Assembly (NCBI GenBank): GCA_030916555.1
Contig: JAUPWK010000018.1
Location: 1-28,425 of the forward strand
Length of the DNA stretch: 28,425 bases
Direction of reading: 5' to 3'
From: Patescibacteria group bacterium
Lineage (GTDB): Bacteria; Patescibacteriota; Patescibacteriia; UBA9934
The notes under the pieces are model-generated. The model did not search any database, was not told the origin of the DNA, and saw only the letters and a program-made list of their open reading frames with translations. Made by a program: the position numbers and the translations under genes. Shown piece by piece: positions 15,501 to 27,059 of this stretch (position 1 is its first letter; each line of letters opens with the position of its first letter).

Positions 15501-16019
15501 TTAACGCTCGTTTACGATCACTTTCGCCGGACGGAGGACAACATCACCGATTTTCCAACCTTTGATAAGTTCTTCGAGGACGGTGCCGTCTTCCTTTGAC
15601 TCGTCAGGCTTGGAGCCACCGGATTCGTGGAGATTGGGGTCGAATTTTTGGCCGACCGTTGCAATTGGCTCGACACCCATGCCTTTCAAGGCCTCCGCAA
15701 ATTGACGCTCGATGTGACCAATACCCTGGAACCAGGTGTCAAAAGCTTTCTGAAATTCGGGCGTCGTTTGTCGGACGTCGGGAACATGCTTCATGACGTA
15801 GCCAAAGTTGTCGACCACCGGTAGCAAGTCTTCTGCAAGCGAGCTTCTGACCCGGCGGCGATCAGTCTCACGCGTTTGGGCATTCTGCTTTTGCAGGTTC
15901 TCATAGTCTGCTAAGGCTCGCTTCCAACCTGCCAAGTATTCGTCACATTTGGCTTGAAGATCTACCTGAGGCTCAGCGGGTTGCACGAGCTCGTCTTGAG
16001 GTTTCTGTTCATCGGTCAT
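15501..16019 (-). CDS. grpE: Nucleotide exchange factor GrpE
   Basis: RALADYENL, LLPVVDNF, FDPNLHE and GWKIGDVVLRPAKVIV. Confidence 0.97.
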   Translation of the reverse strand: MTDEQKPQDELVQPAEPQVDLQAKCDEYLAGWKRALADYENLQKQNAQTRETDRRRVRSSLAEDLLPVVDNFGYVMKHVPDVRQTTPEFQKAFDTWFQGIGHIERQFAEALKGMGVEPIATVGQKFDPNLHESGGSKPDESKEDGTVLEELIKGWKIGDVVLRPAKVIVNER

Positions 16020-16738
16020 AGCGGAAGTAAAGGTTGTTCAAGAACTTTTTTGGCTTGGGTCAGAAGCGCGATGTTGCGGTTGTAATCCATGCGGAGCGGC
16101 CCAACAATGCCGAGCACACCTTCAACCCCGTTGCCAAGATCACTTTTTACCACTACAGACGCCAGTTCATTGCCAAGAGGATTTTCATCTCCCAAAAGCA
16201 CGGTTACTTCATCTGTAGCTGAATTCAAGATGTCTTTGAAGGCGGCATCGAACCGTTCCAAACTTTCCGCAAGCAGGAGAATGGCGCTCCCGGACTGAAA
16301 CTCTGGCTTACGCAAGAGGTTTGCCAGTCCAACCGTGGTACTCCAGGGACGACTGGTGGCCAACATGACGGCCTCACCGGATTCTTTAGCTACTGCATGG
16401 GCCACTTGAGCCAAGCGTTCTTCCGGAGTTGGAGCTCGCGGAGCCCTGCGCACGGTAATGTTGATGCGAATGTTTTTCTGCACGGGTTGCGAGGCCTTCT
16501 GTTCTTGGCCTTGCTTAATGTAAAAGCGGTAGGCCTTCTCTGTCGGCACGCGGCCAGCGGAGGTGTGTGGCTGAGCAATGAGGTCAAGTTCCTCAAGCAC
16601 CGCCATGTCATTCCGAACTGTAGCTGATGAACACGGTAAGTTATACCGTTCACACAGCTGCTTTGAGCTAACGGGCTCAGCAGTGCGGATATACTCATCA
16701 ATAATGAGTTTTAAGATTTGCGCCTGACGTGGGTTCAT
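16016..16738 (-). CDS. hrcA: Heat-inducible transcription repressor HrcA (short form, 240 aa)
   Basis: RQAQILKLIIDEYIRTAEPVSS, SSATVRNDMAVLE, PHTSAGRVPTEKAYRFY and GIVGPLRMDY; CIRCE upstream. Confidence 0.95.
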   Translation of the reverse strand: MNPRQAQILKLIIDEYIRTAEPVSSKQLCERYNLPCSSATVRNDMAVLEELDLIAQPHTSAGRVPTEKAYRFYIKQGQEQKASQPVQKNIRINITVRRAPRAPTPEERLAQVAHAVAKESGEAVMLATSRPWSTTVGLANLLRKPEFQSGSAILLLAESLERFDAAFKDILNSATDEVTVLLGDENPLGNELASVVVKSDLGNGVEGVLGIVGPLRMDYNRNIALLTQAKKVLEQPLLPL

Positions 16739-16772: not shown

Positions 16773-16799
16773 TTAGCAGTCCATATTATAGACTGCTAA
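16773..16799. promoter_or_regulatory. CIRCE operator
   Basis: TTAGCAGTC-N9-GACTGCTAA, a perfect inverted repeat with one change per arm from the canonical TTAGCACTC-N9-GAGTGCTAA. Confidence 0.93.
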
Positions 16800-16812
16800 C
16801 GATGGGTGTCAA
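16785..16812 (-). promoter_or_regulatory. sigma70 promoter of the hrcA-grpE-dnaK-dnaJ operon
   Basis: TTGACA-16 nt-TATAAT, with the -10 inside the CIRCE spacer. Confidence 0.85.
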
Positions 16813-22427: not shown

Positions 22428-22486
22428 GGTAACGACATATTACCCTAAATCTACAGGTAAATGTCTCCGCGTGACGCAGCGTGTAA

Positions 22487-22515
22487 TTGACTTTTGCTTA
22501 AAATTCTGCTAATCT
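22487..22515 (+). promoter_or_regulatory. sigma70 promoter
   Basis: TTGACT-17 nt-TAATCT, followed by AAGGAGG and ATG 22541. Confidence 0.65.
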
Positions 22516-22540
22516 CAGGCAACTCAAGGAGGTGCCTGTG

Positions 22541-22678
22541 ATGCCATATTTGCCCGTGTCCGCTTTCCCGAATGTCCCCCTGTACGCCTGGGTATGCCTC
22601 GCCTTGTGCCTAGGCCTCGTGGCGGCGTACTTCATGTTCCTGTCCGCGCAGGAGCAGCGCCTTCCGTCCAACCGATGA
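22541..22678 (+). CDS. Small single-TM protein (45 aa), absent from the ORF track
   Basis: MPYLPVSAFPNVPLYAWVCLALCLGLVAAYFMFLSAQEQRLPSNR*; AAGGAGG 8 nt upstream; own promoter and terminator. Confidence 0.7.
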   Translation: MPYLPVSAFPNVPLYAWVCLALCLGLVAAYFMFLSAQEQRLPSNR

Positions 22679-22686
22679 TCAGCTCT

Positions 22687-22728
22687 TCACCGCCCGGCCA
22701 CTCTTGGCTCGGCGGTGATCATTTTTTT
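22687..22728 (+). terminator. Intrinsic terminator
   Basis: TCACCGCC / GGCGGTGA stem with an inner GGCCA/TGGCT stem, followed by seven T. Confidence 0.8.
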
Positions 22729-22736
22729 AAGCAAAG

Positions 22737-22764
22737 ACCGCATCCCAAGCAATAGAGATGCGGT
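22737..22764 (-). terminator. Probable terminator of the 23279/23104 transcript
   Basis: ACCGCATC / GATGCGGT 8-bp stem; weak U-tract (CTTTGCTT). Confidence 0.5.
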
Positions 22765-22801
22765 TCGTTATCGTGACTGAGGGTCACGACATGACATTCG
22801 A

Positions 22802-23104
22802 TTACTCCTCAAGAAGTGCTTGCGTAGCTTTGATGAGCCCTGTCACATGCTGGAGTCCGGCCCGAAGCATGAGTCCAAGCGCTAGCGACGTCGCCGCGTG
22901 GGGCAACATCGACAAGCCCCCAAAGCACAACATCACGGTGCCACCGATCAGCAGTGCATACATGATGGGCAGTAGCAGCACGCAGCCTGTCATGACGAGC
23001 AGGGACAGAACGCGCAAACGGAGCACGTCCTTTTTATGCACGTTCACGTGCAAATCGGACTGATCATCAAGCGAACCACTCGTCGGCTCAGCGTCGTGAA
23101 GCAT
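22802..23104 (-). CDS. Small membrane protein (100 aa, 2 TMs)
   Basis: Two hydrophobic segments; a G-run 4 nt upstream of the ATG; 19 nt downstream of the 51-aa gene. Confidence 0.55.
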   Translation of the reverse strand: MLHDAEPTSGSLDDQSDLHVNVHKKDVLRLRVLSLLVMTGCVLLLPIMYALLIGGTVMLCFGGLSMLPHAATSLALGLMLRAGLQHVTGLIKATQALLEE

Positions 23105-23123
23105 ACAGCCCCCCCCAAACGCC

Positions 23124-23279
23124 CTAACGGTGCTCGGAATTGCGTCGAGATGTCAGCGTCAACGCGAGCCCCAACAGACCGACGATGACGAAGAATCCGT
23201 AGAAGGAAGGCGGTCTCGTACCGAGGACCGGATCCGGATGAGACGCGAACGCCGCCGCAGTCAACAGGGACAAAAACAT
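23124..23279 (-). CDS. Micro-protein (51 aa): signal peptide, short linker, C-terminal TM anchor
   Basis: MFLSLLTAAAFA-SHPDPVLGTRPPSF-YGFFVIVGLLGLALTLT-SRRNSEHR*; GGAGG 4 nt upstream of ATG 23279. The ORF-track start at 23324 lies inside the promoter. Confidence 0.65.
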   Translation of the reverse strand: MFLSLLTAAAFASHPDPVLGTRPPSFYGFFVIVGLLGLALTLTSRRNSEHR

Positions 23280-23295
23280 GAAACCTCCAACACCG

Positions 23296-23354
23296 AGAAT
23301 ACGGCACACACATATATACGTCAAGTTGACAAACGGCTAATTTTAGCCTAATAT
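23296..23354. promoter_or_regulatory. Back-to-back bidirectional sigma70 promoter
   Basis: Minus: TTGACG(23324-23319)-17-TATTCT(23301-23296). Plus: TTGACA(23326-23331)-17-TAATAT(23349-23354). The two -35 boxes are 1 nt apart in the palindrome GTCAAGTTGAC. Confidence 0.7.
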
Positions 23355-23380
23355 TCTCACGCAACCACACAGGAGGCACC

Positions 23381-23587
23381 ATGTGCAGAAGGGCTTTCGG
23401 GCCAGACGAAGAAGACGAAGTCGTAGAAGATCCGGACACCCAGGAGGCCATCCTCCCTGTTTCCCGCCATTTTCCGACTCCAAAAACGCGGGTCGGGACA
23501 GCGATAGCGTCAAAAAACGGCCAGCAGGCCGTGACTCGACGCCTCACGGAGCGCAACGGAGCGCCACCGACCAAACGTCGGCGCTAA
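23381..23587 (+). CDS. Small, probably disordered protein (68 aa; acidic N-terminus, basic C-terminus)
   Basis: AGGAGG 4 nt upstream of the ATG; promoter upstream and terminator downstream. Confidence 0.6.
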   Translation: MCRRAFGPDEEDEVVEDPDTQEAILPVSRHFPTPKTRVGTAIASKNGQQAVTRRLTERNGAPPTKRRR

Positions 23588-23609
23588 GCGCCGTGAGCTA
23601 CAACGCAAA

Positions 23610-23640
23610 GCGCCACCCAATAACTCGGGTGGCGCGTTTT
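23610..23640. terminator. Intrinsic terminator between convergent genes
   Basis: GCGCCACCC / GGGTGGCGC 9-bp stem followed by GTTTTT on the plus strand. Confidence 0.75.
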
Positions 23641-23658
23641 TCTTAATTATTCAGTTTG

Positions 23659-24258
23659 TTAGGCTTCGGCGTGTAACTTGAGCACGGCTGGACGAGCATT
23701 CAGCCCCTGCATCCAGCGCACGATGTTGGCGTACGTTGAAACATCAACTCCAGACGTTTCCGCTCCCGCCACCGTGCTGCTGACATTAATATCCGCGACA
23801 GTGAAAGTGCCAGCGACTAAATATTCCTTACCTTCAAGCGCAGCATCAAGGATTGGTAAGAATCGATCAATCGCAGCCCGAGCAGCAGCGGTGTCATCAT
23901 TATCTGGAGTTTTACGGTAACCTTGCAAAATCAGTGTCATGAAAGGGTCAGCAAGGTTTGCAAGTGCCCAGGCGTTCCACTGTGCCACCAAACCGTGCTC
24001 TTGCAAAGTGCTCCCAAGCAAAGCTGGCTGATGTTTTTCTGCCAAGTATGCGTTAATGGCAAATGACTCAAACAAAACAAAATCGTCATCCATCATGACC
24101 GGAATTTTGCCGTTTGGATTCAATTTAAGAAAAGGCTCAGATTTGTTCTCGCCAGCGGCAAAATCGACGCTCACAGTCTCATAAGCGAGGCCGAGTTCAG
24201 CAATCAACCAATGACAACGATATGCACTGGAACGCTTGGTACCGTAAAGCTTTAACAT
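23659..24258 (-). CDS. Glutathione S-transferase family protein
   Basis: FLKLNPNGKIP, LFESFAINAYLA and YLVAGTFTVADI. Confidence 0.93.
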   Translation of the reverse strand: MLKLYGTKRSSAYRCHWLIAELGLAYETVSVDFAAGENKSEPFLKLNPNGKIPVMMDDDFVLFESFAINAYLAEKHQPALLGSTLQEHGLVAQWNAWALANLADPFMTLILQGYRKTPDNDDTAAARAAIDRFLPILDAALEGKEYLVAGTFTVADINVSSTVAGAETSGVDVSTYANIVRWMQGLNARPAVLKLHAEA

Positions 24259-24351
24259 AGTCGTATATAAACTAATAATGCGTCATGAGTATGGTCTAAT
24301 ACATCCGTCTTGTCTATGGAAGTATATCGAAATACATGCCACGCAATTACG

Positions 24352-24380
24352 TTGACTTTTTTGCTAAAATCAACTATCTT
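24352..24380 (+). promoter_or_regulatory. sigma70 promoter
   Basis: TTGACT-17 nt-TATCTT, then GGAGG and ATG 24401. Confidence 0.65.
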
Positions 24381-24400
24381 ACGCCAGCTCCGGAGGTGAC

Positions 24401-24826
24401 ATGGGACTTTTCCCTGAGTGTTCTGACAAACGCCTGGAACGACTCGTTGAAGCTGTCTTCATACCGCTATTCATCGCGGCATTGATCGACCCGGAACACT
24501 CGACCGCCGTAGAAGGCGGAGTGCACACACCTTATCACCGCCAGGTGACGGCAAGTCTCCCGGGTCAAGACCCGGTAACGCTGAGCTGGGGGTACACATC
24601 CCCTCCCAACCAGCCTGCGCTCGGCACGATCTTCATTCGCTTTCGTCAGGGCACGCTGCAGTGCAGCTTCGTGTACTATCTGGCGATCAAGCTGATGGAT
24701 GATGGGCTTTGGCAGTATGAAGTTGCGCGCGCTGATGGTCGCGAATGTACGCCCATCAACTACACTCGCGCGAGTACCATGATCGGTGACTTGGCACGAG
24801 ACTTCGGCAAGCTTCACCGAAGCTGA
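24401..24826 (+). CDS. Hypothetical protein (141 aa)
   Basis: Own promoter, SD and terminator; no family recognised. Confidence 0.7.
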   Translation: MGLFPECSDKRLERLVEAVFIPLFIAALIDPEHSTAVEGGVHTPYHRQVTASLPGQDPVTLSWGYTSPPNQPALGTIFIRFRQGTLQCSFVYYLAIKLMDDGLWQYEVARADGRECTPINYTRASTMIGDLARDFGKLHRS

Positions 24827-24836
24827 CGCCCCCCTT

Positions 24837-24864
24837 CGCAGCCCTAACTATGGGCTGCGTTTTT
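24837..24864 (+). terminator. Intrinsic terminator
   Basis: CGCAGCCC / GGGCTGCG 8-bp stem followed by TTTTT. Confidence 0.8.
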
Positions 24865-24868
24865 GCAT

Positions 24869-24911
24869 AAAAAAATGTCCGAGCATCGGGTTTTCAGGCC
24901 CTAGCTCGGAC
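24869..24911 (-). terminator. Intrinsic terminator of the candidate ncRNA
   Basis: GTCCGAGC / GCTCGGAC stem with an inner stem, followed by A and seven T on the minus strand. Confidence 0.7.
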
Positions 24912-25212
24912 GTGCGTTCGACGGCTATCTTGGTGCTGTTATACACCTTGAAGTTATTTTCGCCGGCTACTAGCTAACGAGACGAAGTGTATCCTCGAGT
25001 AACGCACAGTTCAGAAAACCGTGCTGAACTGGGGCGAACCCGACATGATGCCGGTTCAACCAAGCGCTACTGCCGGTACGGATTTATCGACGTTACGCGC
25101 CGGACTACCATCTGCCAATGGTGTTACGCAACGACGTCGCGGATCAGTCTCAAGAACCTACCGCGATCTACCTCACCCTGTGGCCCCCCGACCACTCCCC
25201 ACAACTGAGACC
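24869..25212 (-). ncRNA. Candidate stand-alone structured ncRNA (~344 nt), family unassigned
   Basis: Bounded by a TTGACA-17-TATACT promoter and a terminator; only very short ORFs on this strand; multiple helices with G-U pairs. Confidence 0.5.
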
Positions 25213-25219
25213 GAGGAAA

Positions 25220-25248
25220 AGTATAAAGCATTTATTTGGCTGTGTCAA
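25220..25248 (-). promoter_or_regulatory. Near-consensus sigma70 promoter
   Basis: TTGACA(25248-25243)-17 nt-TATACT(25225-25220), just downstream of a terminator. Confidence 0.75.
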
Positions 25249-25270
25249 GCGAATATACGAGTTGATCAAT

Positions 25271-25297
25271 AAAAAACCCATCGGCGCTGCCGATGGG
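25271..25297 (-). terminator. Intrinsic terminator
   Basis: CCCATCGGC / GCCGATGGG 9-bp stem followed by six T on the minus strand. Confidence 0.8.
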
Positions 25298-25314
25298 AAG
25301 GTCTCATCCCGAGC

Positions 25315-25713
25315 TCAGAGACCCATGCAGATGTACACCAAACGGTTGTCCGGATTGTTCGGATCCACCGCCAGGTGCTGACGAAGCAGGAGTGTGCTCG
25401 GCCAAAACTGCAGGTCGTTGTCCTGAGTACGCTCGACACAAGCCCATGCGTCAGGATCTTCTTGCCGCTGCACGTAGCAGTCGTGTTGCAATGACCGCGA
25501 AGCCGATACCTTCAACCGGTCCCGCATCTCTACCTGAAACAGGCTGGGATCATCCGGTGGCCGGTGATCGAAGATCTCGAGTCGAGCGGGCGCTCCGCTC
25601 CGGTTCTCGATGAAGTACATCGGGGGCGAATCGGGACTCAGCGCCGACGCGCACGAACCGGCCTCCGGAACCGTCGAGCAGCTACAGCCGACCAAAAACA
25701 CCAAATAACGCAT
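25315..25713 (-). CDS. Hypothetical exported or lipoprotein-like protein (132 aa)
   Basis: MRYLVFLVGC (lipobox-like), 6 Cys, GAGG upstream, own promoter and terminator. Confidence 0.6.
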   Translation of the reverse strand: MRYLVFLVGCSCSTVPEAGSCASALSPDSPPMYFIENRSGAPARLEIFDHRPPDDPSLFQVEMRDRLKVSASRSLQHDCYVQRQEDPDAWACVERTQDNDLQFWPSTLLLRQHLAVDPNNPDNRLVYICMGL

Positions 25714-25748
25714 GGCTACCTCTTCGTCTCAGGAAGCGAGACCGTGGA

Positions 25749-25776
25749 AGAATATCAAATATTAGCAAAAAATCAA
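25749..25776 (-). promoter_or_regulatory. Probable sigma70 promoter
   Basis: TTGATT-16 nt-TATTCT overlapping the murF stop codon. Confidence 0.45.
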
Positions 25777-27059
25777 GCTAACCACCGATCCTCCTGCCGA
25801 ACCAACAACTCTGTCGCCTTACCAGGTTCGGCTAAAATATCCTTAACAAGACGCTCCATGCGCTGTGACTGAGAACCCTTTACAAGCACAACATCGCCTG
25901 TCTCAAGAATGCGATCCAGATAACGGCCAGCTTCAACCGAATCCTTAAACCAAATCGTTTTGTCCTCTGGCATACCCGCCGCAATAGCAGCTTCAATTGC
26001 GAACTTCATCTGAGGACCAACCGCTACAAACAAATCCGCAGCTGTAGCTACACGCTCACCAATCATGCGATGCTCAGCCTCAGATAGGCTTCCAAGCTCT
26101 GCCATGTCCGCCAGTGCAGCAATCCGACGATCCTTAAGCTCCCCTGGAGTAAACTGCTCTAACGCCTCAAGTCCGGCAATAACCGAAGCTGGAGCGGCAT
26201 TATAACTGTCGTCCAAAATAAGCGAACCCTTAATACCAGCCAACGGTCGCAAACGACCATTCACCGGTACAAGCTCCTTTGAAAGCGCGGCCGTGGCCGT
26301 GACTAAAGGCACACCGTGATGCACTGCCACCTGAACGGCAGCAAGGGCTGCGGACACCATAGACACAGTGGCGCAATTCAAAAGCTCAAGCTCGGCAGTC
26401 TCGTTCCCAACGTGCAACGTGGCCTTTGTAACCACAAACACCTCCCCCACATCAAAGCTTTCCTCTTTCGGATAGGTGAACTGAATATCTGTAGCGTATG
26501 CATCACCATTACTTAAGCTATACGTTCTCACGGGAGCATGAAAACGTTTGCGCATGCCCATAACACGAACATCGTCGCCATTTAAAAGCACAAGTCCGTC
26601 CTGCAAGACTGCTTCACCTAAGGCCGCCTTCTCATCAATAAGTGCCTCAAGGCTTGGGTAATTCGAAACATGTACTGGAGAAATCGCCGTAATCACTACT
26701 GTCTGCGGATGTGCAATCCGAATAAGCCCAGCCATATCGCCAGGCTTGTCCACGCCATATTCGAGAACAAGATACTCCGGCATATCTTTGCTCCGCACTG
26801 CCCGAGTAAACAATTTCAACCACTCCCAAGCGTTTTTTCCCGGACTCTGCTCGCCAAGAACTGCGAGGGGTAAACCAATTTCGTTATTGTAATTTTTATA
26901 CGGCGTACGAACACGATATTTTGCACCAAGTGCAATCGCAATTGCGCTACGTGTTGAAGTCTTCCCCACCGAACCCGTAACTGCAACCACTGTTGGGTGG
27001 TACTTTTTGATTTTCGCCTTGGCGATGTTGGCTAACGCTTTGATAACGAGATTTTTCAT
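25773..27059 (-). CDS. murF: UDP-N-acetylmuramoyl-tripeptide--D-alanyl-D-alanine ligase
   Basis: VTGSVGKTST, NYNNEIGLPL, VLEYGVDKPGDM, ILDDSYNAAPAS, LADMAELG and VLVKGSQ. Start set at MKNLVIK (27059) rather than the ORF-track 27122. Confidence 0.93.
   Translation of the reverse strand: MKNLVIKALANIAKAKIKKYHPTVVAVTGSVGKTSTRSAIAIALGAKYRVRTPYKNYNNEIGLPLAVLGEQSPGKNAWEWLKLFTRAVRSKDMPEYLVLEYGVDKPGDMAGLIRIAHPQTVVITAISPVHVSNYPSLEALIDEKAALGEAVLQDGLVLLNGDDVRVMGMRKRFHAPVRTYSLSNGDAYATDIQFTYPKEESFDVGEVFVVTKATLHVGNETAELELLNCATVSMVSAALAAVQVAVHHGVPLVTATAALSKELVPVNGRLRPLAGIKGSLILDDSYNAAPASVIAGLEALEQFTPGELKDRRIAALADMAELGSLSEAEHRMIGERVATAADLFVAVGPQMKFAIEAAIAAGMPEDKTIWFKDSVEAGRYLDRILETGDVVLVKGSQSQRMERLVKDILAEPGKATELLVRQEDRWLA

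What the first reader, a model, noticed from the sequence alone, without database searches (positions are those of the whole stretch)
24869..25248. Orphan ~344-nt transcription unit with a near-consensus promoter and terminator but no credible ORF
Seen in sequence: TTGACA-17-TATACT (25248-25220) lies right after the terminator of the upstream gene. The predicted +1 is near G25212, and a hairpin plus U7 ends the unit at 24911-24869, back to back with the plus-strand terminator. The minus-strand ATG ORFs I found inside the unit are only 11-14 codons. Helices include GGUCUCAG/UUGAGACU, GUGGUC-GGGG-GGCCAC, CGACGU/ACGUCG enclosing ACCAU/AUGGU, UGAACC..GGUUCG and CAGUUCAG/CUGAACUG. Partial resemblances from memory: the UUGAACC...GGUUC hairpin recalls the 3' side of 6S RNA, and GGGGAGU...CGUCGUUGCG-hairpin-CCGG recalls yybP-ykoY. 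Neither family's closing stem is found, and the tmRNA and RNase P signatures are absent. Inference: a highly expressed, possibly new or very divergent ncRNA of this lineage.
Basis: partly seen in the sequence, partly recalled or inferred. Interest (0 to 1): 0.78.

Follow-up and report, generated by a model that had tools for sequence, protein, structure and literature searches.

The report
New structured RNA gene in Patescibacteria
The flagged stretch is a real, separately transcribed, roughly 344-base folded RNA gene that selection keeps at least as constant as the essential gene next to it; it matches no catalogued RNA family, was found only in a handful of closely related ultra-small (Patescibacteria) bacteria, and its job is unknown.

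Summary
On the minus strand, TTGACA-17-TATACT (25248-25220) and a hairpin plus U7 (24911-24869) bracket about 344 nt with no conserved ORF.

I recovered the same unit from three other uncultured lineages (92%, 86% and 84% identical). A fifth lineage has a 566-nt relative that shares the 3' core.

- **Selection:** among the three most divergent lineage pairs, murE third codon positions are only about 50% identical and murE DNA 78-80%. The RNA is 79-87% identical.
- **Not coding:** indels are 1-3 nt and break every frame.
- **Structure:** nine of nine double substitutions in helices are compensatory. One helix is completely rewritten in the 566-nt relative. SCI is 0.88, and no shuffled alignment of 200 folds as well.
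- **Expression:** contigs from three RNA libraries of three studies lie only inside the unit.
- **Known families:** Rfam gives nothing. Relatives carry ordinary RNase P RNA and tmRNA, so it is not a divergent copy of those. It is not 6S-like in size or shape.
- **Distribution:** no copy in 162 genomes of the order or in 185,579 species representatives.

Function is unknown. My best guess is a trans-acting RNA that works through its fold. This scan has already noted many such orphan RNAs in Patescibacteria on other DNA.

The parts
25220..25248 (-). Sigma-70-type promoter: TTGACA (25248-25243), 17-nt spacer, TATACT (25225-25220).
   Evidence: Matches 11 of 12 and is one of only two such sites in the window. 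The 29 nt are identical but for one spacer base in all four 344-nt lineages. This holds even in L096, where the promoter overlaps the murE stop codon.
24869..25212 (-). The RNA itself, about 344 nt. The 5' end is inferred from the -10 box and the 3' end from the terminator U-tract.
   Evidence: No conserved ORF. Homologues are 79-92% identical while murE third codon positions are 50-78% identical. SCI 0.88; alignment-shuffle z -4.6. Sense strand alifold -109.7 kcal/mol against -79.7 for the antisense. RNA-library contigs lie at 24981-25172, 24934-25103 and 24899-25077.
25180..25195 (-). Hairpin H1 (GUGGUC-GGGG-GGCCAC).
   Evidence: Found in the MFE and consensus folds. Three pairs change between U-A/U-G or G-C/G-U and stay paired.
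25137..25166 (-). Helix H2 (UCGCGG/CCGCGA) enclosing the small hairpin H2a.
   Evidence: G-C to A-U in H2 and U-A to C-G in H2a in the L095/L030 lineage. H2a competes with pairing of the 5' end GGUCUCAG.
25088..25136 (-). Long hairpin H3/H3a with a conserved internal loop.
   Evidence: G-C to A-U and C-G to U-A double changes plus several G-U/G-C switches. In the 566-nt relative, H3 is entirely rewritten as CUUCACU/AGUGAAG while the loop sequence is kept.
25072..25109 (-). Most conserved core: GGUAGUCCGG, 10 nt, CGAUAA, 2 nt, CC, 2 nt, ACCGGC.
   Evidence: The spacing and letters are identical in all five lineages, including the 566-nt relative. The pattern with up to 3 mismatches hits only the window's own genome among 162 genomes of the order.
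24998..25071 (-). Stem P4 (AGUAGCGC/GCGUUACU) enclosing hairpins P5 and P6.
   Evidence: C-G to U-A in P4, and A-U to U-G and U-G to G-U in P5. In the 566-nt relative P4 is kept, and P5+P6 are replaced by one hairpin capped by GGAA.
24960..24975 (-). Invariant motif AGCUAGUAGCCGGCGA (hairpin H7 region).
   Evidence: Invariant in the four 344-nt lineages. Recognisable as GCAAGUAGUCGGUGA in the 566-nt relative.
24932..24947 (-). Hairpin H8 (GGUGU/AGCAC).
   Evidence: G-C to A-U double change and U-G to C-G.
24869..24920 (-). Conserved CGAACGCAC, then the intrinsic terminator (stem 24911-24877, U7 24875-24869).
   Evidence: The outer stem and U-tract are kept in all lineages. The inner loop is rewritten in L096. 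The same motif and a similar terminator occur in the 566-nt relative.

Best explanation
The stretch is a stand-alone gene for an abundant, about 344-nt, multi-helix non-coding RNA of a family not in Rfam. It is transcribed from its own near-consensus sigma-70 promoter and ended by an intrinsic terminator. It sits in a variable gene slot between murE and ygjP/msrB in a narrow clade of Patescibacteria related to Candidatus Uhrbacteria. Shown here: it is conserved under purifying selection, its helices are maintained by compensatory change, it does not code, and it appears in RNA libraries. Inferred: it acts in trans through its fold. A junction holds invariant single-stranded letters (GGUAGUCCGG, CGAUAA, ACCGGC, AGUAGCCGGCGA), and these most likely form a binding site for a protein or small ligand, in the way of an RNP or sequestering RNA, and less likely a base-pairing regulator. 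My odds: real structured ncRNA gene about 0.9; acts through a bound partner at the conserved junction about 0.5.
For: - **Promoter and terminator:** both are present and conserved in four lineages.
- **Purifying selection:** among win, L095 and L096, murE third positions are 50-52% identical and murE DNA 78-80%, while the RNA is 79-87%.
- **Not coding:** indels of 1, 2, 2, 3 and 1 nt; no ORF is shared on either strand.
- **Structure, independent test:** using the fold of the window sequence alone, 9 of 9 double changes and 31 of 48 single changes keep pairing. For the two relatives tested, 27 of 39 changed cells are canonical against 29-40% with slid partners.
- **Structure, consensus fold:** 10 pairs have compensatory change. 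SCI is 0.88 and 0 of 200 alignment shuffles fold as well. The sense strand folds far better than the antisense.
- **The 566-nt relative:** it lies at the same position and keeps the loop letters while rewriting helix H3. It also keeps a long-range helix, which reads AUCC:GGAU, GUCC:GGAC or CCCC:GGGG in the three types.
- **Expression:** contigs of three RNA libraries from three studies lie only inside the unit and not on the flanking genes. A DNA library covers the flanks.
- **Autonomy:** neither neighbour is obligatory. L096 lacks the lipoprotein gene and L099 lacks the 141-aa gene.
Against: - No function is shown.
- There are only five lineages, all close kin, so the covariation counts are small and share ancestry.
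- The RNA-library evidence comes from assembled contigs, which show neither strand, nor ends, nor level.
- No partner protein is identified. The adjacent 141-aa protein is acidic to neutral, evolves fast and is absent from one lineage, so it is not a good candidate.
- The narrow distribution argues against a housekeeping role.
- Preferring protein or ligand binding over base pairing is an inference from size and architecture alone.
Confidence: 0.6

Rival explanations
1. It is a trans-acting base-pairing regulatory sRNA. One of the invariant unpaired stretches would be a seed that pairs with mRNAs.
For: It is a stand-alone gene with a strong promoter and a Rho-independent terminator, as in classical sRNAs. 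It has several invariant unpaired stretches. It lies among stress-related genes: GST, MsrB and a YgjP-like peptidase.
Against: It is three to four times longer than typical sRNAs and has at least eight conserved helices, which a seed-type regulator would not need. The best complementarity to the rest of the genome is 14 nt at E about 0.8, which is chance level. It has no anti-Shine-Dalgarno stretch.
Confidence: 0.15
2. It is, or was, a cis-acting leader (a giant riboswitch or attenuator) controlling the downstream glutathione S-transferase gene through its terminator.
For: In every lineage the RNA lies upstream of GST on the same strand. In L099 only 70 nt separate its terminator from the GST start, and no promoter-like site was found between them. 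The invariant UACUCGAGGA could pair with the 5' arm of the terminator (GUCCGAG) as an anti-terminator; this I read directly from the sequence.
Against: In four lineages a convergent 141-aa gene with its own terminator lies between the RNA and GST. GST there has its own promoter-like site at 24316-24288, yet the RNA stays strongly conserved. The terminator is a full-strength hairpin plus U7 in all lineages. RNA-library contigs do not run past it. No riboswitch family matches.
Confidence: 0.1
3. It is an mRNA or dual-function RNA for a micropeptide. The candidate is the 11-codon sense frame MSGSPQFSTVF (window 25046-25011).
For: The frame is present in the window and in L029. In the L095/L030 lineage a 3-nt insertion keeps it in frame.
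Against: No Shine-Dalgarno sequence precedes it. The start is ATG in some lineages and GTG in another. In L096 the stop UGA becomes UGG, extending the frame to about 25 codons, and that change is exactly what keeps a U-A pair as U-G in helix P6. The region is absent from the 566-nt relative.
Confidence: 0.04
4. It is a very divergent copy or functional analogue of a housekeeping RNA (RNase P RNA, tmRNA, 6S RNA or SRP RNA).
For: Its size is close to RNase P RNA and tmRNA. The window's own assembly has no hit for RF00010, RF00023, RF00013 or RF00169. No 6S RNA is detectable anywhere in the genus.
Against: 16 of 18 genus relatives have ordinary RNase P RNA (51-138 bits), including G017, the nearest relative. 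15 of 18 have tmRNA (83-109 bits). So those genes are simply unassembled in this 91%-complete, 96-contig genome. The unit gives no hit to any of these models even at E<=10, and ARAGORN finds nothing. It is missing from near-complete genomes of the same genus, which a housekeeping RNA would not be. It is twice the length of 6S and is branched, not rod-like. SRP proteins are missing from the order altogether.
Confidence: 0.03
5. It is non-functional: a decayed gene remnant or spacer that happens to carry a promoter and a terminator.
For: It lies in a variable, recombining slot of the genome.
Against: It is more conserved than the murE coding sequence and far above third-position identity. Changes are compensatory. 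The promoter is conserved. It is present in RNA libraries.
Confidence: 0.03

Closest known systems
Orphan large structured bacterial ncRNAs of unknown function (raiA motif RNA, OLE, ROOL, GOLLD)
   Same: A stand-alone gene a few hundred nucleotides long. It has many helices kept by covariation, invariant junction and loop letters, apparent abundance and no known job.
   Different: There is no sequence or structure match to any of their Rfam models, even at E<=10. The phylum is different. The distribution is much narrower: five lineages of one genus-level clade. No recurrent partner gene is seen.
6S RNA (Rfam RF00013)
   Same: An abundant stand-alone RNA with a sigma-70 promoter and an intrinsic terminator.
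   Different: It is 344 nt against about 185 nt. The fold is branched and multi-domain, with no 5'/3' closing stem and no central bubble. There is no model hit.
RNase P RNA (RF00010) and tmRNA (RF00023)
   Same: Similar length; highly structured.
   Different: No model hit and no ARAGORN call. Relatives have the canonical genes elsewhere, and most of them lack this RNA.
yybP-ykoY manganese riboswitch (RF00080)
   Different: No model hit at E<=10. The unit is not a 5' leader of a Mn-related gene. It is followed by a terminator and, in four lineages, by a convergent gene.
Other orphan promoter-to-terminator structured RNAs that this scan has noted in Patescibacteria (AI notes)
   Same: The same anatomy (consensus promoter, 300-500 nt ORF-free folded RNA, terminator), the same phylum and the same lack of an Rfam match.
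   Different: This unit shares no short words with any of them, so it is a separate family. I could not compare structures.

Membership tests
6S RNA (RF00013) | Match to the covariance model | tested here: not met
   No hit in the window at gathering score or at E<=10. None in the genome.
6S RNA (RF00013) | About 150-200 nt; rod-like fold with 5'/3' closing stem, large central bubble and terminal stem | tested here: not met
   It is 344 nt. The consensus fold is multi-branched with two domains and no closing stem between the ends.
6S RNA (RF00013) | Binds sigma-70 RNA polymerase holoenzyme and templates pRNA | not testable with these tools
   Needs biochemistry.
RNase P RNA, bacterial type A (RF00010) | Model match, including the P4 helix with its conserved sequences | tested here: not met
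   No hit at E<=10. Read by eye, AGUCCGG and GCCGGCG can form only 5 pairs, not a P4 helix. Relatives carry canonical copies at 51-138 bits.
tmRNA (RF00023) | tRNA-like acceptor/T-arm domain plus a tag reading frame | tested here: not met
   ARAGORN finds none in the window. No model hit. Relatives carry canonical tmRNA.
SRP RNA (RF00169, RF01854) | Domain IV hairpin that binds the Ffh M domain | tested here: not met
   No model hit. No Ffh M domain or SRP-type GTPase was found in this genome or in near-complete relatives.
yybP-ykoY riboswitch (RF00080) | Model match | tested here: not met
   No hit at E<=10 on 24700-25400.
yybP-ykoY riboswitch (RF00080) | Lies in the 5' leader of a Mn-homeostasis gene on the same strand | tested here: not met
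   Downstream lie a terminator and a convergent 141-aa gene. The next same-strand gene is a GST.
Diversity-generating retroelement template RNA | Template repeat similar to a variable repeat in a nearby target gene, plus a reverse transcriptase | tested here: not met
   No repeat links the unit to the fast-evolving 141-aa gene or to anything else in the genome.
Structured ncRNA gene (generic kind) | Own promoter and terminator, no conserved ORF, base pairs kept by compensatory change, sequence under purifying selection | tested here: met

The most novel reading that the evidence does not exclude
The conserved junction (GGUAGUCCGG-CGAUAA-ACCGGC, with P4 and the AGUAGCCGGCGA motif) may be the sensing or catalytic core of a new class of large RNA. 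In its ancestral arrangement, still seen in the 566-nt relative, it would sit as a leader directly before a glutathione S-transferase gene and gate that gene in response to a redox or thiol-related signal. The 344-nt version would have been freed from the gene and kept as a trans-acting RNA. That would make it a new large riboswitch or ribozyme-like class from the candidate phyla radiation.
Probability: 0.08. Interest if true: 0.8.

Novelty: new member of a known kind. Interest (0 to 1): 0.45.

Why it matters
Patescibacteria have genomes under 1 Mb and very little spare DNA. An RNA gene of 344 nt, held more constant than an essential cell-wall gene and visible in metatranscriptomes, is therefore unlikely to be idle. 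It adds a well-supported family, with a usable structural model and a longer relative, to the growing set of orphan structured RNAs in these uncultured bacteria. It also gives a defined conserved core to probe for a ligand or protein partner. Its reach is limited: it was found in only five closely related lineages, none cultured, and nothing yet points to its function.

Tried and rejected
- **Rfam:** the whole window at gathering score gave nothing. Searches at E<=10 on the unit, two homologues and the 566-nt relative gave only chance hits: AgvB on the terminator, lncRNA fragments, serC, Rubella_3 and CRISPR-DR28 on a neighbouring terminator.
- **ARAGORN:** nothing.
- **Divergent RNase P RNA, tmRNA or SRP RNA:** rejected.
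- **BLASTn:** the unit against 60 relatives gave nothing. There is one copy in the window's own genome.
- **Exact-pattern scans:** three patterns against genome contigs and one against viral contigs found nothing. The one metagenome scan gave three loci (L026-L028) that share only a 20-25-mer and are unrelated.
- **Covariance models:** R1 (5' domain) was run over 151 genomes of the order. It gave two weak hits (19.7 and 14.9 bits) with no 3' domain beside them, so I count them as chance. R2 with filters off on the murE-downstream loci of 16 of the 18 genus genomes (G017 and G005 contigs end at or within this region), and R1 and R2 on the next-nearest GST-bearing lineages, found nothing new.
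- **nhmmer:** the alignment against the syntenic loci found nothing.
- **Core-motif pattern:** with up to 3 mismatches over 162 order genomes, only the window's own genome matched.
- **DGR template or antisense target:** no repeats and no significant complementarity.
- **Neighbouring ORFs:** PADLOC, PHROGs, NCBIfam and Pfam found nothing except the GST. The ESM Atlas gave no usable lead for the 141-aa protein.
- **Literature:** searches found no description of this RNA.
- **Not used:** The count of structure pairs, because it needs a long typed structure string. I computed the equivalent counts in scripts.

Full report
**Observation**

On the minus strand the window reads TTGACA (25248-25243), 17 nt, TATACT (25225-25220). 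This follows directly after the terminator (25297-25277) of a 132-aa lipoprotein-like gene at 25315-25713. The promoter matches 11 of 12 positions. It is one of only two such sites in the 28.4-kb window; shuffles average 0.39.

About 344 nt further on lies the stem GUCCGAGC/GCUCGGAC (24911-24877) followed by U7. It is back to back with the plus-strand terminator of a convergent 141-aa gene. Sense ATG frames inside the unit have 14 and 11 codons. The +1 position is inferred. The single-sequence fold is not significant on its own (z -1.23).

**Organism and setting**

The genome is 0.81 Mb in 96 contigs and 91% complete. Relatives found through MurE are Patescibacteria; one genus member is labelled Candidatus Uhrbacteria.

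The neighbours are:
- a PBP transpeptidase and a Mur ligase upstream;
- the 141-aa orphan, a glutathione S-transferase, two more orphans, a YgjP-like peptidase and MsrB downstream.

In genus member G003, MurE is followed almost directly by MsrB. In G014, 2.4 kb of other DNA lies between them. The block at roughly 22430-25770 (GC 0.53-0.55 against about 0.47) is therefore a variable slot.

**Known families**

- Rfam gives no hit at gathering score on the window. At E<=10 on the unit it gives only chance matches. ARAGORN finds nothing.
- The window's own assembly lacks hits for RNase P RNA, tmRNA, 6S RNA and SRP RNA. This made me consider a divergent housekeeping RNA.
- However, 16 of 18 genus relatives have ordinary RNase P RNA, including G017, the nearest. 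15 of 18 have tmRNA. Those two genes are therefore simply unassembled here.
- 6S RNA is undetectable in the whole genus. The unit is twice the size of 6S and is branched, not rod-like.

**Homologues**

BLASTn against 60 relatives found nothing. Both flanking orphan genes match only G017, at contig ends. Public runs told a different story: 20 runs from 12 studies (freshwater, wastewater, sludge, runoff) hold part of the unit.

Through homologues of the two flanking orphan proteins I fetched the following contigs:
- identical copies (L031, L033);
- a copy with two differences (L032);
- L029, 92% identical;
- L095 with its fragment L030, 84%;
- L096, 86%.

The 29-nt promoter is identical in all but one spacer base. 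In L096 the lipoprotein gene is absent, and the -35 box overlaps the murE stop codon.

Through GST homologues I reached the next lineages out. L099 (identical to L100 in the RNA region) has a lipoprotein homologue, a terminator, a TTGACT-17-TAGTAT promoter and a 566-nt ORF-free stretch ending 70 nt before GST; it has no 141-aa gene. Its last 205 nt or so align to positions 104-344 of the window RNA. The alignment score is 62, against a shuffle mean of 25 and maximum of 39. More distant lineages (GST 68-74% identical) have no copy.

**Selection and coding**

Among the window, L095 and L096, murE third codon positions are 50-52% identical, which is near saturation. murE DNA is 78-80% identical. 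The RNA is 79-87% identical. For the window against L029 the figures are 78%, 90% and 92%. The unit is thus held at least as constant as an essential coding sequence.

Indels of 1, 2, 2, 3 and 1 nt break any long frame.

The 11-codon sense frame changes its start (ATG to GTG). In L096 it loses its stop through a change that keeps a helix pair. It also lacks a ribosome-binding site.

**Structure**

To avoid circularity I first used the fold of the window sequence alone. On it:
- L029 has 12 one-sided changes that keep pairing and 3 that break it;
- L095 has 8 and 9, plus 8 two-sided changes, all compensatory;
- L096 has 11 and 5, plus 1 compensatory change.

For L029 and L030, 27 of 39 changed cells are canonical. 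With the 3' partner slid by 1-3 columns the figure is 29-40%.

RNAalifold on six sequences gives 101 pairs, 10 of them with compensatory change. The structure conservation index is 0.88. The consensus energy beats all 200 column-shuffled alignments, with z -4.6 overall and -3.2 without the terminator. The reverse complement folds much worse, -79.7 against -109.7 kcal/mol, which supports the minus strand as the RNA.

The 566-nt relative is the strongest witness:
- Helix H3 is completely rewritten (CUUCACU/AGUGAAG in place of the window's CGACGUCGUUGCG/CGCGUAACGUCG), while the internal loop GGUAGUCCGG stays letter for letter.
- A long-range helix reads AUCC:GGAU in the window, GUCC:GGAC in the three other 344-nt lineages and CCCC:GGGG in L099.
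- Stem P4 is kept, while its two inner hairpins are replaced by a single GGAA-capped hairpin.

Long-range pairings other than this one are not settled. They differ between the two consensus folds. The 5' end GGUCUCAG can pair with UUGAGACU as an alternative to a local hairpin.

**Expression**

I laid contigs of three RNA libraries from three studies and one DNA library on 24300-25800.
- The RNA-library contigs lie at 24981-25172 (no differences), 24934-25103 (two differences) and 24899-25077, plus three short diverged pieces. All are inside the unit; none lies on either flanking gene.
- The DNA library covers 24860-25800 on two contigs, with a short break between them.

This fits a transcript much more abundant than its neighbours. 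Contigs, however, show neither strand nor ends.

**Distribution**

- There is one copy in the window's own genome.
- nhmmer and covariance models R1 and R2 found no copy at the syntenic loci of the other genus members. R1 found none in 151 order genomes.
- The 38-nt core pattern with up to three mismatches hits only the window's own genome among 162 order genomes.
- A relaxed exact pattern hits none of 185,579 species representatives.
- The family is known so far from five uncultured lineages around this species. G017 probably belongs to the L029 lineage (both have MurE 93.7% identical to the window's), with its contigs broken in the two flanking genes, so that the RNA region itself is unassembled.

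**What it does**

Nothing here shows a function.
- Neither neighbouring orphan gene is obligatory.
- No defence, phage or known family signal is present in the slot apart from the GST.
- No repeat links the RNA to the fast-evolving 141-aa gene, and no significant complementarity to the rest of the genome exists.

The size, the many covarying helices and the invariant junction letters point to an RNA that works through its three-dimensional fold, by binding a protein or ligand. A seed-type regulator would not need them. I put that at about even odds, given that it is a real ncRNA.

The L099 arrangement, with the RNA directly before GST and no promoter between them, keeps a cis-leader reading alive at about 0.1. 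Against it, the four 344-nt lineages have uncoupled the RNA from GST and still conserve it.

**Novelty**

It is a new family of a known kind, the orphan structured bacterial ncRNA. This scan's earlier AI notes list several hundred notes that match a search for orphan structured ncRNAs in Patescibacteria, on other DNA. None shares sequence words with this one.

Noticed in passing
Whole genome G000 and relatives (not in the window): The signal recognition particle pathway appears to be missing from this Patescibacteria order. There is no small SRP RNA (RF00169) in 31 genomes of 7 families, including a single-contig genome, and no large SRP RNA in the 5 genomes tested. No Ffh M domain (PF02978) and no SRP-type GTPase domain (PF00448, which covers Ffh and FtsY) was found in G000 or in four to five 97-100% complete relatives, while 14 of 14 control genomes score. 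No G1...DTAGR motif occurs in any real frame of G000. RNase P RNA and tmRNA are found normally in the same genomes. I found no paper stating this.
   Followed up: partly
Genome G000: The window's own assembly has no RNase P RNA or tmRNA hit, although nearly all genus relatives do. These genes probably fall in assembly gaps of this 96-contig, 91%-complete genome.
   Followed up: partly
window 24401-24826 (+): The 141-aa orphan protein convergent with the RNA evolves very fast: 60-72% amino-acid identity between lineages whose MurE is 87-94% and whose GST is 91-94% identical to the window's. Its tree is discordant. L029 and L096 share 85% here and 96% GST DNA, but only 79% murE DNA. This suggests recombination or diversifying selection. 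It has a hydrophobic N-terminus, no family match and only two other clusters in 5.8 billion proteins.
   Followed up: partly
window about 22430-25770: A variable gene slot lies between murE and ygjP/msrB, with raised GC (0.53-0.55). Here it holds the lipoprotein, RNA, 141-aa, GST, 176-aa and 100-aa genes. It is almost empty in G003 and holds other DNA in G014. Other relatives have a Na+/H+ exchanger, GGDEF or SASA genes there.
   Followed up: partly
window 25738-25763 versus 25207-25232: The -10/+1 region of the RNA promoter (…TCCTCGGTCTC) is repeated at 77% identity upstream of the lipoprotein gene (…TCCACGGTCTC), just after the murE stop. In L096 the lipoprotein gene is absent and the RNA promoter itself abuts murE. 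The lipoprotein gene may therefore have been inserted or lost with a duplicated promoter segment.
   Followed up: partly
L099:3363-3928 (+) and L100: A 566-nt ORF-free, promoter-to-terminator RNA lies directly upstream of GST in a neighbouring lineage. It is homologous to the window RNA in its 3' 205 nt and probably throughout, with expansions. It has no Rfam match.
   Followed up: partly
window 16784-16812 (-): This is the only perfect 12-of-12 promoter in the window (TTGACA-16-TATAAT). It lies upstream of the 240-aa gene at 16016-16738.
   Followed up: no
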